Positions 26,803-61,420 of a stretch of 64,000 bases of DNA are shown in pieces. The DNA comes from Escherichia phage A7_1: sequence record OP795442; one strand, given 5' to 3'. Within the stretch, counting starts at the first letter, position 1. Each line of letters starts with the position of its first letter. The translations under genes were made by a program, and so were the position numbers. The notes under the pieces were generated by a model, which worked only from the letters and a program-made list of their open reading frames with translations, ran no database searches and was not told where the DNA came from.

Positions 26803-27128
26803 TTTTTAACTCCGAAGATCTTAGATAGTAATTTATCATTCCCGATAGTTACACCACAAAAACTTTTTACTCCGTATACTAGATACGACCCGATTGTAAC
26901 ACAGATAATGATCGGATAAACAAGATACCAAAAGAATGTTGCAAGTATCCACCCTGCCATCACCATACGTAAATTTACATTTTCGTTATTCAGTGGCTCC
27001 AGGATATAAATATCCTCACAATCTTTTGGGAAGGGGATGTTAAAACCCTTCTGTCGTAATTTGATCAGTAAGAACCAAAGCGGGCAACTGATAAAACAAC
27101 CGATCAAATAACCTTCAACCATTTTCAC
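26799..27128 (-). CDS. hypothetical membrane protein (109 aa), tandem paralog B
   Basis: FLLIKLRQKGF motif shared with neighbour. Confidence 0.5.
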   Translation of the reverse strand: MKMVEGYLIGCFISCPLWFLLIKLRQKGFNIPFPKDCEDIYILEPLNNENVNLRMVMAGWILATFFWYLVYPIIICVTIGSYLVYGVKSFCGVTIGNDKLLSKIFGVKK

Positions 27129-28413
27129 TCTCCTTCAATTTGTCAAGATATTGTGTAACGTATCTTACTTTTACATTTCGGATTCTATTCTTGATCTCTT
27201 CTGGACGTCCAGCAAATCTTTCAGAGATCTCTTTACTTTCTTTTGAGATTGCAACGCTGTTTTGAACAATCCCCGCCAGTGCTGAGAATAATACCAAAGG
27301 TTGAGTGTAGCTGTCAAACATTTTTTCAGGACCCCGACCACGAGCATCACAGATGCAAGCATCAATAAATTCAGAGAGGAATGCTTGGTCCTTTTCACCA
27401 CGTAAGGCTACTAACAAGTCATAAACTTTCTTTGGCTTCATTTCTTTGATACGGTGAAGTCGTGTATGATGCTCAGTTACAGCTAAAGCCAACTTCTTCC
27501 AATTATTGGGGACACCAAAGCGATCACAAACTTGTTCAGTTAACTTGATACCATGTTCTTCGTGACCGTGCAGTTTACCCGTTACCCAATAAATACATTT
27601 ACCTAAGTCGTGACACAGAACTGCCCACTTCACAGCTTCACTTGCACGAGTCGCCTGGGCATAATCCATGCAAAGTAAAGTGTGAACAAATGCATCACCT
27701 TCAGGATGGTGCTCCTTGGGTTGAACAACATCGTATAAATCCACAAGCTCAGGAAATTCCCCCAGTTGAGTCAACATACGGATCATTACCGAAGGTTTAT
27801 TCATTTCTGACTGATCACTAAAGCATTTCTTAATCTCTGCAAATTTACGCTCTTTTGGTAATGCACTTAAATCAACATCCTTGCACATTCCCCAAGTGTC
27901 AGGATCAATTGTAAACTCGCCTCCGTATCTGGCATGTAATCTGGCTAATCGATATACACGTAAAGGGTCTTCGATAAATGCCTTAATAGATACACAACGT
28001 AACCGACGAAGTTCAATATCAAGTGCACCACCGCAAGGGTCAATAATTTCACCCGTAGAAATATCCTTAGCGATCGCATTAATGGTCAAATCTCTTCGCA
28101 TCAGGTCTTGTTCGATTGTAACGTCTGGAGAGAACACAACTTCGAAGTCGTGATAACCAGGACCTGTTGATCTTTCTGTCCGAGCAAGAGCATACTCTTC
28201 CTTTGTCTCGGGGTGAAGGTACACAGGGAAAGCTGCACCAACCTTAGTAAATCCCTTCTCAATCATTTCTTCATGGGTCGCTCCAACTACAACGTAGTCA
28301 CGATCCTTGCTTTCAACACTCATTAGTTCATCGCGAACTGCACCACCTACCAAGTAAACTTTCATTCCTTCTTCTTCCATTCTTTCCAATTCTGCATGCC
28401 CGCTCATAGCCAT
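27115..28413 (-). CDS. cca: tRNA nucleotidyltransferase (CCA-adding enzyme) with HD domain
   Basis: LVGGAVRDELM and DRD head motifs; HHPEGD and LCHDLGK HD-domain motifs. Confidence 0.8.
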   Translation of the reverse strand: MAMSGHAELERMEEEGMKVYLVGGAVRDELMSVESKDRDYVVVGATHEEMIEKGFTKVGAAFPVYLHPETKEEYALARTERSTGPGYHDFEVVFSPDVTIEQDLMRRDLTINAIAKDISTGEIIDPCGGALDIELRRLRCVSIKAFIEDPLRVYRLARLHARYGGEFTIDPDTWGMCKDVDLSALPKERKFAEIKKCFSDQSEMNKPSVMIRMLTQLGEFPELVDLYDVVQPKEHHPEGDAFVHTLLCMDYAQATRASEAVKWAVLCHDLGKCIYWVTGKLHGHEEHGIKLTEQVCDRFGVPNNWKKLALAVTEHHTRLHRIKEMKPKKVYDLLVALRGEKDQAFLSEFIDACICDARGRGPEKMFDSYTQPLVLFSALAGIVQNSVAISKESKEISERFAGRPEEIKNRIRNVKVRYVTQYLDKLKESENG

Positions 28414-34310: not shown

Positions 34311-35057
34311 TTAATTACCCCCTTTAAGATCCTTTTCACGAGCCTTGACAACTGCCTTACAGAATGGACTACGAACGATTTCTTCACTAGTCGCTTCAAC
34401 ATAATCGGCAAAGTCGTAAAGTTCATGACGATCAATGAATTCGATTGCCCATTCTAATCCAGTTTCACGATTACGCATATCGTTCTGTGTGATATCGCCT
34501 AAGCAGAACAGCTTAGAACTTTCACCTTTACGAGTCATGATCGTGTAAGCCGTATCTTCATCTGTGTTCTGAAACTCATCGACAATAACAACCGCATTAT
34601 CGAAAGAACGTCCACGGATATATTCCAGAGGAACAAATTCAATGTTACCACAACCCAACTGAGTTTCAAAGAAACCGTGACCGTAGCGTTGCTGAATAAC
34701 CTGAATAAGTGCCTGAAGGAAAGGCTCGAATTTCTCACGGATAGTCCCAGGTAGTAACCCGAGGCTGTTCCCCATTCCCAATGTTGGTCGAGTAAGGACG
34801 ATCTTTTCAATCTTACCTTGCTTCAGCCAATCAATAACGGTACTCATAATGACAAATGTCTTACCTGTACCCGCCGGAGCGTTAACGAAAACAACTTCCT
34901 TCTCGTTAACCAGAGATAACAATTCCTTTTGGAATCGGTTCTTTGGAGTAATAGGTTTTTTCAACTCTTCATAGGCTTTAGGTGTTACCTGACGGCCTTT
35001 TGAACGCTTCTCTTCACGACGATCCTGACGAGATTTACGATTAGTATGACGTTGCAT
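34311..35057 (-). CDS. phoH: PhoH-like ATPase
   Basis: Walker A GTGKT; LTRP, EFVPLEYIRGRSF and DEFQN motifs. Confidence 0.8.
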   Translation of the reverse strand: MQRHTNRKSRQDRREEKRSKGRQVTPKAYEELKKPITPKNRFQKELLSLVNEKEVVFVNAPAGTGKTFVIMSTVIDWLKQGKIEKIVLTRPTLGMGNSLGLLPGTIREKFEPFLQALIQVIQQRYGHGFFETQLGCGNIEFVPLEYIRGRSFDNAVVIVDEFQNTDEDTAYTIMTRKGESSKLFCLGDITQNDMRNRETGLEWAIEFIDRHELYDFADYVEATSEEIVRSPFCKAVVKAREKDLKGGN

Positions 35058-60796: not shown

Positions 60797-61009
60797 TTGA
60801 AGATTGGTTCTACGGCGGGATCTCTGGATGCTTTGAAGATGAACACCCAGACTTCTAATTATTTTCCTCTGGAGGATAATCCTCGTAATCATGATTGTAA
60901 AGATTATGATTGTCTATGTTATTGCTGCGGTCATCGATTTGCAGGGCCAAAGAGAAGCATAATGTGTAATCTTTGTCTTAACAAGAAGAAACCTGTTGAC
61001 AATAGCTGA
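60797..61009 (+). CDS. hypothetical Cys-rich protein (70 aa)
   Basis: CKDYDCLCYCCGH...CNLC. Confidence 0.4.
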   Translation: MKIGSTAGSLDALKMNTQTSNYFPLEDNPRNHDCKDYDCLCYCCGHRFAGPKRSIMCNLCLNKKKPVDNS

Positions 61010-61320
61010 TTAAATATGTAAGATTATTTTGTTGCCTGAGAGATTAGTCATCTTGAAGGCTGGGTGGGCAAATATAAGTTGGAACCATTATACCACCGAC
61101 GCGATTTACGCTTTTGGTTGACTGTGACTAAATGGGATGCCCAGTCCATCCTTCTTTAAAACGGGGAGCCGTCGAAGATTGTCTGATTAGTGATTTACGG
61201 ATCACTATAGTTTTACTACCACGACAATCTTTTACGGTGTACCCCTTGTCATGATGACGAGGTTTAAGGTTATCCTGTCGTTAAATATCCAAAACCTGTT
61301 ACCACCCACAAGAGAATTTA

Positions 61321-61403
61321 GCGCGGGTGTATCTCAACGGTCTTCTAAACCGTCGTTAATCGAGTAATTGGAGTATGAAGGTTCGAGTCCTTTCTCCCGC
61401 GCT
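61321..61403 (+). ncRNA. tRNA-like element, cloverleaf unresolved
   Basis: Perfect GGTTCGAGTCC T-arm and GCGCGGG/CCCGCGC ends but no consistent D or anticodon arm. Confidence 0.25.
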
Positions 61404-61420
61404 AAGTTCTTTTGAATATA

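What the first reader, a model, noticed from the sequence alone, without database searches (positions are those of the whole stretch)
61321..61403. Second tRNA-like element with consensus T-arm but unresolved cloverleaf
GCGCGGG...GGTTCGAGTCC...CCCGCGC has a textbook T-loop and complementary termini, but spacing leaves 2 unpaired nt between T-stem and acceptor, and no D-arm is evident. An internal stem-loop ACGGT-CTTCTAA-ACCGT would give a UCU anticodon loop, but it is out of register with the acceptor.
Basis: seen in the sequence. Interest (0 to 1): 0.4.

Follow-up and report, generated by a model that had tools for sequence, protein, structure and literature searches.

The report
Phage arginine tRNA with rearranged D-arm
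The flagged stretch is a real, strongly conserved phage tRNA-like gene with an arginine (UCU) anticodon whose D-arm is wired differently from the universal cloverleaf, and I found no published description of it.

Summary
Window 61323-61401 (+) has a 7-bp acceptor stem (one U.U), a 5-bp anticodon stem with loop CUUCUAA (anticodon UCU), a canonical T arm and discriminator G, but no D hairpin. ARAGORN misses it. The Rfam tRNA model scores 33.9 bits (cut-off 29) only by deleting the D arm.

It belongs to a family: 66 distinct sequences from viral contigs and 269 isolate-phage records, including Felix O1. The family is almost absent from bacterial genomes.

Covariation supports all three known stems and a new 3-bp helix, CUC 61333-35 with GAG 61362-64. 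This helix encloses the anticodon arm and is 100% paired, with nine different pair combinations. It is followed by a near-invariant UAAYUGGAGUAU, which resembles a D loop (A14, R15, G18, G19, A20).

All anticodons are arginine: 62 UCU, 2 CCU, 1 ACG, 1 UCG. The discriminator is A or G in 63 of 66. Forty-one of 66 encode CCA. Phage tRNA clusters carrying the element almost never hold a canonical tRNA-Arg with the same anticodon.

Best reading (0.7): a functional, non-cloverleaf tRNA-Arg(UCU). The window copy lacks CCA and sits in a 14-bp leader-trailer duplex. The phage encodes its own CCA-adding enzyme. Expression and charging are untested.

The parts
61309..61322 (+). 5' leader strand (CAAGAGAAUUUAGC) of a 14-bp leader-trailer duplex that extends the acceptor helix
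   Evidence: It pairs base for base with 61401-61414 in the precursor fold. Eleven of the 25 family members that lack an encoded CCA have 11-12 of 12 flank positions paired, although the flank sequences differ. The null mean is 4.75 and P(>=10) = 0.008.
61323..61329 (+). Acceptor stem, 5' strand (GCGGGUG)
   Evidence: It pairs with 61394-61400. All 7 pairs show compensatory changes across 66 sequences, and 98.9% of cells are paired.
61330..61332 (+). Invariant linker UAU; the first two bases are aligned to U8 and A9 of tRNA
   Evidence: It is invariant in 66 of 66 sequences. Rfam aligns the UA to model positions 8-9.
61333..61335 (+). New helix, 5' strand (CUC). It plays the part of the D-stem strand that leads into the anticodon stem.
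   Evidence: It pairs with 61362-64. Cells are 100% paired and 3 of 3 pairs show double changes: CUC/GAG, CGG/CCG, CGC/GCG, CAU/AUG, CAC/GUG, CAG/CUG, UCC/GGA, CGU/ACG, CUU/AAG. The mutual information of these pairs ranks with the other stems.
61336..61336 (+). A at the helix/anticodon-stem junction (position-26-like); a probable non-Watson-Crick partner of C61361
   Evidence: Columns 14 and 39 covary as A.C, C.A, C-G, A-U and U.G. This is the highest mutual information outside the proposed pairs.
61337..61353 (+). Anticodon arm: stem ACGGU/ACCGU and loop CUUCUAA, with anticodon UCU at 61344-61346
   Evidence: All 5 stem pairs covary. The loop has U33 and A37. Family anticodons are 62 UCU, 2 CCU, 1 ACG and 1 UCG.
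61354..61361 (+). Conserved 8-nt segment CGUUAAUC between the anticodon stem and the 3' strand of the new helix. It forms a bulge of about 7 nt.
   Evidence: C, U, A and A are invariant or nearly so. One divergent member has only UCA here. Its role is unknown.
61362..61364 (+). New helix, 3' strand (GAG)
   Evidence: See 61333-61335.
61365..61376 (+). D-loop-like single strand UAAUUGGAGUAU, lying where the variable region normally is. It is read as A14 A15 Y16 Y17 G18 G19 A20 ... U48.
   Evidence: UAA, GGAGUAU and the G that opens the T stem are invariant in 66 of 66 sequences. Only the one or two bases before GG vary, as positions 16 and 17 do in tRNAs. The equivalence to the D loop is inferred from the tRNA consensus, not tested.
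61377..61393 (+). T arm: stem GAAGG/CCUUU and loop UUCGAGU
   Evidence: Stem cells are 99.1% paired and 3 pairs show double changes. The loop bases UUCGA are invariant.
61394..61400 (+). Acceptor stem, 3' strand (CUCCCGC)
61401..61401 (+). Discriminator base G
   Evidence: The family discriminator is G in 33, A in 30, U in 2 and C in 1.
61401..61414 (+). 3' trailer strand (GCUAAGUUCUUUUG) of the leader-trailer duplex. No CCA is encoded.
   Evidence: The five canonical tRNAs of the window all encode CCA.
60996..61024 (+). Sigma-70-like promoter match (TTGACA, 17 nt, TAAGAT) upstream of the element and of tRNA-Met
   Evidence: It matches 10 of 12 consensus positions. This is a consensus match only.

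Best explanation
This is a gene for a structurally non-canonical arginine tRNA (anticodon UCU, reading AGA), one member of a phage-borne family.

Shown by comparison: the RNA has a normal 7-bp acceptor stem, a 5-bp T stem with a UUCGA T loop, and a 5-bp anticodon stem with a 7-nt loop. It has no D hairpin. Instead, three bases just after U8-A9-U (CUC) pair with three bases that lie after the anticodon arm (GAG). The anticodon arm is therefore nested inside this short helix.

Inferred: the short helix stacks on the anticodon stem as the D stem does in a normal tRNA. The near-invariant AAYUGGA that follows its 3' strand acts as the D loop, with G18 and G19 docking on the T loop and A20 presented to ArgRS. 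U61376 takes the place of U48. On this reading the normal L-shaped core is kept with a different backbone order: the segment holding positions 10-21 has moved from before the anticodon arm to after it.

Inferred: the RNA is cut from a precursor, charged by host ArgRS (A20-like A, C35, U36, G73) and used to read AGA. AGA makes up 16.5% of Arg codons in the long ORFs of the window, which I recall is several times higher than in E. coli.

The window copy lacks an encoded CCA and sits in a 21-bp helix (14-bp leader-trailer duplex plus acceptor). It probably needs a double-strand cut (RNase III is the candidate), then RNase P, 3' trimming and CCA addition. The phage encodes a CCA-adding enzyme at 27115-28413 (-). 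Why the fold was rearranged is unknown. One guess is escape from host factors that recognise the standard D arm.
For: Structure:
- 66 distinct members have 98% of cells paired, and 18 of 20 pairs show changes on both sides. The covariation score is 0.815 against 0.20 for shuffles (0 of 500 reach it), and slid controls pair at 35-47%.
- The new helix was not used to select sequences, yet it is 100% paired with nine different pair combinations.
- The 13 column pairs with the highest mutual information are all proposed base pairs.

tRNA character:
- The Rfam tRNA model scores above its gathering score.
- 41 of 66 members encode CCA directly after the discriminator.
- The genes sit inside phage tRNA arrays.

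Arginine identity:
- Anticodons are UCU (62), CCU (2), ACG (1) and UCG (1), and the search pattern used did not constrain the anticodon. A divergent member carries ACG.
- C35 is invariant and the discriminator is A or G in 63 of 66.
- GGA is invariant. A20, C35, U/G36 and A/G73 are the E. coli arginine identity set (PMC9976931).

Use in decoding:
- Of 44 element-bearing loci with at least 8 canonical tRNAs, only one has a true canonical Arg(UCU).
- Of 25 loci with both kinds of Arg tRNA, 23 have non-overlapping anticodons.
- The complete genome of the close relative LTH01 has five canonical tRNAs, no canonical tRNA-Arg, and one copy of the element.
- AGA is 8.4 per 1000 codons in the window.
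- The E. coli translation machinery accepts even a tRNA with no D arm at all (PMC11551756).
Against: - There is no expression, processing, aminoacylation or decoding data of any kind.
- The equivalence of AAYUGGA to the D loop, and the L-shaped fold, are inferred from sequence. These bases are invariant, so covariation cannot test them.
- RNAalifold does not predict the 3-bp helix on energy grounds. The proposed fold of the window copy (-17.7 kcal/mol) is slightly less stable than its minimum-free-energy fold (-20.1).
- Two loci (L018, L117) carry a canonical tRNA-Arg(UCU) as well, so the element is not always the only AGA decoder.
- The window copy has a U.U mismatch in the acceptor stem, a weak T stem and no CCA.
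- The loci compared are not phylogenetically independent.
- There were too few element-free tRNA clusters (3) for a proper control of the 'missing Arg(UCU)' pattern.
Confidence: 0.7

Rival explanations
1. It is a tRNA mimic that is made but not used in translation. For example, it could be a decoy or sponge that protects host or phage arginine tRNAs from a nuclease that targets the arginine anticodon loop (colicin D type), or that titrates another tRNA-binding host factor.
For: The anticodon loop CUUCUAA is reported for both phage Sf14 and its Shigella host, which would suit a decoy. The element coexists with a canonical Arg(UCU) tRNA in L018 and L117. The unusual core could block normal use. 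Phage tRNAs are known to counter tRNA-targeting defences (PMC10264068, PMC11464382 and PMC11555353, listed).
Against: A decoy for an anticodon nuclease would not need a purine discriminator, an encoded CCA (41 of 66), an invariant GGA or a perfect acceptor/T helix. The near-complementary distribution with canonical Arg anticodons fits a decoding role better. I found no defence system specific for tRNA-Arg(UCU) in the literature searches.
Confidence: 0.17
2. It is an RNA processing or DNA-level signal rather than a product. It could be a tRNA-shaped RNase P/RNase III punctuation site for the transcript that carries the upstream conserved element and tRNA-Met, or the footprint or target of a mobile element (an HNH endonuclease gene lies next to it in some phages).
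For: The window copy sits in a 21-bp helix suited to a double-strand RNase. HNH endonuclease genes adjoin or overlap the element in Bas93 and several Felix O1-like phages. The element is shared at 77-93% identity by unrelated phage groups, which implies horizontal transfer.
Against: A punctuation site would not need a conserved anticodon loop restricted to arginine anticodons, nor CCA in most copies. The flanks are not conserved in sequence and only pair in a subset. The conserved unit ends exactly at the tRNA boundaries.
Confidence: 0.08
3. It is a decayed tRNA pseudogene, or an ordinary class II tRNA that the finders mis-fold, as in the tRNA-Leu(UAA) annotation of the 121Q copy.
For: ARAGORN fails on it. 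Annotators have called copies tRNA-Leu(taa), tRNA-OTHER, tRNA-Undet or nothing.
Against: A pseudogene would not keep 28 invariant columns and compensatory changes in four helices across unrelated phage groups. No hairpin forms within the long 'variable' region. That region pairs with the 5' linker instead. Reading UAA as the anticodon would need a 9-nt loop out of register with the covarying stem.
Confidence: 0.03

Closest known systems
Canonical bacterial and phage tRNA-Arg(UCU) (E. coli argU; the tRNA-Arg of T4 and of Shigella phage Sf14)
   Same: It shares the anticodon loop CUUCUAA that one search reports for Sf14 and its host. It also shares the 7/5 acceptor/T helix, the UUCGA T loop, a purine discriminator, a GGA motif like G18-G19-A20, and a position in phage tRNA arrays.
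   Different: There is no D hairpin between the acceptor and anticodon stems. The D-stem-like helix is formed by strands on either side of the anticodon arm, and the D-loop-like sequence lies in the variable-region position. ARAGORN does not detect the element.
D-arm-lacking mitochondrial tRNAs (for example mt-tRNA-Ser(AGY/UCU)) and the synthetic 'mini HisT'
   Same: A short connector replaces the D hairpin between the acceptor and anticodon stems. Mini HisT shows that E. coli synthetase, EF-Tu and ribosome can use a tRNA without a D arm (PMC7609411, PMC11551756).
   Different: Those tRNAs lose the D/T-loop contact and are short (about 60 nt) and flexible. This family is longer than normal (about 78 nt plus CCA). 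It keeps an invariant GG motif and a canonical T loop, and adds a covarying helix. This suggests the core is kept rather than lost.
Circularly permuted and split tRNA genes (Cyanidioschyzon merolae, some archaea)
   Same: The order of tRNA segments in the gene differs from the standard order (PMC3978253, listed).
   Different: From what I recall, in those cases processing restores a standard cloverleaf in the mature tRNA. Here the 5' and 3' ends are in the normal place, and the internal order itself is changed in the mature RNA.
tRNA-Sec and allo-tRNAs (8/5, 9/4, 8/4 and 9/3 acceptor/T configurations with long variable arms)
   Same: They are non-standard tRNAs found by metagenome mining. The window copy superficially looks as if it had a 9-bp acceptor stem and a long variable region.
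   Different: Family comparison shows a standard 7/5 configuration. The extra pairs in the window belong to the precursor duplex. tRNA-Sec and allo-tRNAs keep a normal D hairpin and have a self-contained variable hairpin (PMC5389517, PMC7609411).

Membership tests
tRNA (canonical cloverleaf; Rfam RF00005) | 7-bp acceptor stem closing the molecule, followed by a discriminator base and a CCA that is either encoded or added | tested here: met
   61323-29 pairs with 61394-400 and all 7 pairs covary. 41 of 66 family members encode CCA; the window copy does not.
tRNA (canonical cloverleaf; Rfam RF00005) | T arm: a 5-bp stem and a 7-nt loop with the T54-Psi55-C56-R57-A58 consensus, abutting the acceptor stem | tested here: met
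   GAAGG-UUCGAGU-CCUUU at 61377-93. UUCGA is invariant in 66 of 66.
tRNA (canonical cloverleaf; Rfam RF00005) | Anticodon arm: a 5-bp stem and a 7-nt loop with U33 and a purine at position 37 | tested here: met
   ACGGU-CUUCUAA-ACCGU at 61337-53. All 5 pairs covary.
tRNA (canonical cloverleaf; Rfam RF00005) | D arm: a hairpin (positions 10-25) between position 9 and the anticodon stem | tested here: not met
   Only 7 nt separate the acceptor and anticodon stems. Rfam aligns 4 nt against 15 model positions. ARAGORN makes no call. The covarying partner of the 5' strand lies after the anticodon arm.
tRNA (canonical cloverleaf; Rfam RF00005) | Score at or above the Rfam gathering threshold | tested here: met
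   33.9 bits against 29.
tRNA-Arg (E. coli-type arginine identity) | C35 and U36 or G36 in the anticodon | tested here: met
   The window has UCU. The family has UCU, CCU, ACG and UCG only. The identity set is taken from PMC9976931.
tRNA-Arg (E. coli-type arginine identity) | Discriminator A73 or G73 | tested here: met
   G61401 in the window. The family has 33 G and 30 A out of 66.
tRNA-Arg (E. coli-type arginine identity) | A20 in the D loop, the main determinant for E. coli ArgRS | tested here: inconclusive
   An invariant A (61372) follows the invariant GG (61370-71), as A20 follows G18-G19. It lies in a segment at a different place in the chain. Whether ArgRS sees it as A20 needs a structure or kinetics.
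tRNA-Arg (E. coli-type arginine identity) | Aminoacylation with arginine and decoding of AGA | not testable with these tools
   The support is indirect only: complementarity with canonical Arg anticodons in tRNA clusters.
Class II tRNA (long variable arm: Leu, Ser, bacterial Tyr) | A self-contained hairpin in the variable region, plus a normal D arm | tested here: not met
   No covarying pairs occur within 61354-61376. That region pairs with 61333-35 instead. There is no D arm.
tRNA-Sec / allo-tRNA | Acceptor stem longer than 7 bp (8/5, 9/4, 8/4 or 9/3) | tested here: not met
   Homologues with encoded CCA fix the acceptor at 7 bp and the T stem at 5 bp. The apparent 9-bp stem in the window is leader-trailer pairing.
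D-armless mitochondrial-type tRNA | Loss of the D arm together with loss of the D-loop/T-loop contact elements | tested here: not met
   The D hairpin is absent. However, an invariant GG-containing motif and a fully canonical T loop are kept, and a replacement helix covaries.

The most novel reading that the evidence does not exclude
A natural, widespread and so far undescribed class of tRNA that is not a cloverleaf. These are phage arginine tRNAs in which the D-stem strands lie on either side of the anticodon arm and the D loop sits in the variable-region position. They would still build an L-shaped core and would be charged by bacterial ArgRS and used by bacterial ribosomes. This would be the first non-cloverleaf tRNA known to work in bacterial cytoplasmic translation. 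The changed wiring may have been selected to escape host factors that recognise the standard D arm.
Probability: 0.55. Interest if true: 0.88.

Novelty: new variant of a known kind. Interest (0 to 1): 0.8.

Why it matters
[quoted passage not shown] A 2020 review of non-canonical tRNAs lists nothing like this family and does not mention phage (PMC7609411). If this family is functional, several things follow.

- The tRNA core can be built with a different strand order, which bears on how tRNA folds and evolved.
- It offers a natural test of how ArgRS, RNase P, EF-Tu, modification enzymes and the ribosome read shape rather than connectivity.
- It gives a possible scaffold for orthogonal tRNAs.
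- Well-studied phages such as Felix O1, rV5-like, phi92-like, 121Q-like and Klebsiella myoviruses would have an unannotated AGA-decoding tRNA. Standard tRNA finders miss or mislabel it, which affects codon-usage and tRNA-complement analyses of phages.

Tried and rejected
- **ARAGORN** on the window and on four homologous loci made no call at the element. It did call one divergent member (L090) as a 98-nt tRNA-Arg(tct).
- **Single-sequence folding** gave a non-tRNA minimum-free-energy fold with z = -2 and was uninformative.
- **RNAalifold** recovered only the three classical stems.
- **9-bp acceptor stem (tRNA-Sec-like).** Rejected, because homologues with CCA fix the stem at 7 bp.
- **Pairing of the 5' linker with the second GAGUA (61371-75).** Rejected in favour of the first GAG, because only that one covaries.
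- **Pairing of UUA (61356-58) with UAA (61365-67).** No compensation for the U-to-C change at column 35.
- **Possible pairs UAU (61330-32) with GUA (61373-75).** These cannot be tested because all the bases are invariant.
- **Viral-contig scan anchored on the 5' half.** Almost all hits were chance matches; only one new member was found.
- **Weak model hit at 34423-34499 (-).** It lies in coding sequence and is not tRNA-like.
- **Eight literature searches** found no description of this family. The library lacks most subscription journals, so absence is not proof.
- **Not used:** the metagenome scan, protein searches and structure prediction tools. No RNA 3D tool was available.

Full report
**1. 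The observation**

ARAGORN finds five ordinary tRNA genes nearby: Met 61421-95, Tyr 62298-379, Gly 62794-868, Gln 62968-3042 and Pro 63048-124. It finds nothing at 61321-61403.

The Rfam tRNA model does match 61323-61401 at 33.9 bits, above its gathering score of 29. It does so only by replacing the 15 D-arm positions with 4 nt and inserting 20 nt before the T arm.

**2. Context**

The window is from an E. coli myovirus close to UPEC06 (98.7% identity), A5-4 and vB_EcoM-LTH01, which belongs to the Vequintavirinae.

A sigma-70-like promoter match lies at 60996-61024. A terminator-like hairpin follows tRNA-Pro at 63173-94.

**3. The element is a family**

The 82-nt element alone matches 269 isolate-phage records at 77-99% identity. 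These come from unrelated groups:
- Vequintavirinae and phi92-like phages
- Felix O1 itself, wV8 and other Felixounavirus
- Klebsiella and Proteus myoviruses
- the 121Q/PBECO4 jumbo phages
- N4-like phages Bas93 and Bas94
- a Streptomyces phage

Most records leave it unannotated. A few call it tRNA-OTHER, tRNA-Undet, tRNA, or tRNA-Leu(taa) in 121Q.

From all loci I extracted 66 distinct full-length members.

A scan of one genome for each of 185,579 bacterial and archaeal species found only four true copies. All four are on metagenome-assembled contigs with tRNA clusters. The family is therefore essentially phage-borne.

**4. Structure**

Homologues that encode CCA fix the ends: a 7-bp acceptor stem abutting a 5-bp T stem, then a discriminator, then CCA.

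I tested the following structure on the 66-sequence alignment: acceptor, UAU, 3-bp helix strand, one base, anticodon arm, 8 nt, 3-bp helix strand, 12 nt, T arm, acceptor. The results were:
- 98.0% of cells form standard pairs, against 66.6% for shuffles and 35-47% for slid controls.
- 18 of 20 pairs show changes on both sides.
- The covariation score is 0.815, against 0.20 for shuffles; none of 500 shuffles reaches it.

The new helix (window 61333-35 CUC with 61362-64 GAG) was not used to pick the sequences. It is nevertheless paired in 66 of 66 members, with nine different combinations: CUC/GAG, CUU/AAG, CGG/CCG, CGC/GCG, CAU/AUG, CAC/GUG, CAG/CUG, UCC/GGA and CGU/ACG. CCC/GGG appears in a further metagenome copy.

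An unbiased mutual-information ranking puts 13 of the proposed pairs in the top 13 places. The next pair joins A61336 with C61361 (A.C, C.A, C-G, A-U, U.G) and is probably a fourth, non-Watson-Crick layer of the helix.

RNAalifold recovers the three classical stems but not the short helix. Single-sequence folding is uninformative.

**5. Reading the fold (inference)**

The 5' strand runs without a break from the short helix into the anticodon stem (61333-61341). This is how the 3' strand of a normal D stem runs through position 26 into the anticodon stem.

After the 3' strand of the short helix comes UAAYUGGAGUAU, then the T stem. This segment is invariant except for the one or two bases before GG. 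It matches the D-loop consensus A14-R15-Y16-Y17-G18-G19, followed by A20. The last U occupies the place of U48, the usual partner of A15. The linker after the acceptor begins with U-A, like U8-A9.

So every conserved element of the tRNA core is present, but the segment equivalent to positions 10-21 lies after the anticodon arm instead of before it. The short helix, the A.C layer and the 5-bp anticodon stem together give about the same stack height as a normal D stem plus anticodon stem.

None of this tertiary reading can be tested by covariation, because the bases are invariant. It needs probing or a solved structure.

**6. Arginine identity and use**

*Identity.* The scan did not constrain the anticodon. 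Even so, the 66 members carry only UCU (62), CCU (2), ACG (1) and UCG (1). Two divergent members found with the family model carry ACG and UCU. C35 is invariant, and the discriminator is G or A in 63 of 66. These features, together with A20, make up the E. coli arginine identity set (PMC9976931).

*Distribution in tRNA clusters.* Of 44 element-bearing loci with at least 8 canonical tRNAs (some have up to 26 or more), only L117 has a true canonical tRNA-Arg(UCU). The small locus L018 also has one. The call in L090 is the divergent family member itself. Of 25 loci holding both a family member and a canonical tRNA-Arg, 23 have non-overlapping anticodons. For example, L090 has the rearranged type with CCU and UCU and the canonical type with ACG and CCG.

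*Individual genomes.* Felix O1 has an annotated tRNA-Arg for CGU only, and this unannotated element lies in its tRNA cluster. The complete genome of LTH01 holds five canonical tRNAs, no tRNA-Arg, and one copy of the element.

*Codon usage.* AGA makes up 16.5% of arginine codons (8.4 per 1000) in the long ORFs of the window. From general knowledge, this is several times higher than in E. coli.

*Caveat.* The loci are not independent, and I had too few element-free clusters for a control.

**7. Two kinds of flank**

Forty-one of 66 members encode CCA and show no flank pairing. Of the 25 without CCA, 11 have 11-12 of 12 leader and trailer positions paired, although the flank sequences differ between lineages. 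The null mean is 4.75 and P(>=10) = 0.008.

The window copy is of this second kind. 61309-61322 pairs with 61401-61414, which together with the acceptor stem gives a 21-bp helix with one U.U mismatch.

All five canonical tRNAs of the window encode CCA. The phage encodes a CCA-adding enzyme at 27115-28413 (-), with a poly(A) polymerase head domain and an HD domain.

I infer a maturation route through a double-strand cut, RNase P, 3' trimming and CCA addition. This route is not shown.

**8. Rivals**

- *Uncharged decoy for an arginine-anticodon nuclease or another tRNA-binding factor.* This remains possible, at about 0.17. It does not explain the purine discriminator, the encoded CCA, the invariant GGA or the complementary anticodon sets.
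- *Processing signal or mobile-element footprint.* This fits the duplex and the neighbouring HNH genes. It does not fit the arginine-only anticodons.
- *Pseudogene or mis-folded class II tRNA.* The conservation and covariation exclude both.

**9. Novelty**

Eight full-text searches found no description of this family. A 2020 review of non-canonical tRNAs does not list it. A 2024 paper states that all known bacterial tRNAs are cloverleaves. The library lacks most subscription journals, so an earlier report cannot be ruled out.

I class the element as a new structural variant of a known kind, tRNA. It fails the D-arm criterion of the canonical family while meeting the others.

**10. Verdict**

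My confidence that the secondary structure, including the new helix, is right is about 0.9. My confidence that it is a functional tRNA-Arg is about 0.7. My confidence that the core mimics the standard L shape as described is about 0.55.

Noticed in passing
window 61156-61297 (+): A stretch of about 140 nt just upstream of the element, on the same strand and downstream of the same promoter match, is 80-89% identical to an unannotated intergenic stretch in 772 phage records, nearly all T4-like phages. In T4 that stretch lies between rIII and gene 30.9. It contains nested inverted repeats (AAGATTGTC...GACAATCTT and CCTTGTCAT/ATGACGAGG) and has no Rfam match. It may be a conserved structured RNA or regulatory element shared by two unrelated phage groups.
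   Followed up: partly
window 27115-28413 (-): This 432-aa ORF has a poly(A) polymerase head domain and an HD domain, and its homologue in the related phage LTH01 is annotated as CCA tRNA nucleotidyltransferase. The phage therefore carries its own CCA-adding enzyme. Among the window's six tRNA-type genes, only the rearranged arginine one lacks an encoded CCA.
   Followed up: partly
L034 2689-2766 and L090 13348-13429 (viral contigs): These are divergent members of the same family. L034 has anticodon ACG, only a 3-nt bulge (UCA) and the D-loop-like segment UAAUUGGAAUGAU. L090 has anticodon UCU and a longer segment UAAUUGGAUAGAACAU, which resembles the D loop and 3' D-stem strand of canonical tRNA-Arg. 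They may be evolutionary intermediates.
   Followed up: partly
L004 1053-1502 (Bas93), and Felix O1-like records: HNH homing-endonuclease genes lie directly next to, or are annotated over, the element in several phages. This could help explain its spread between unrelated phage groups.
   Followed up: no
L003 1063-1137 and L035 10447-10521 (Klebsiella phage Iguana_ER37), also L006, L008 and L028: ARAGORN reports a 'tRNA-???' with a two-base anticodon (ga) in several of these phage tRNA clusters. The record annotates it as a pseudo tRNA-Ser. It is another odd tRNA-like gene that I did not examine.
   Followed up: no
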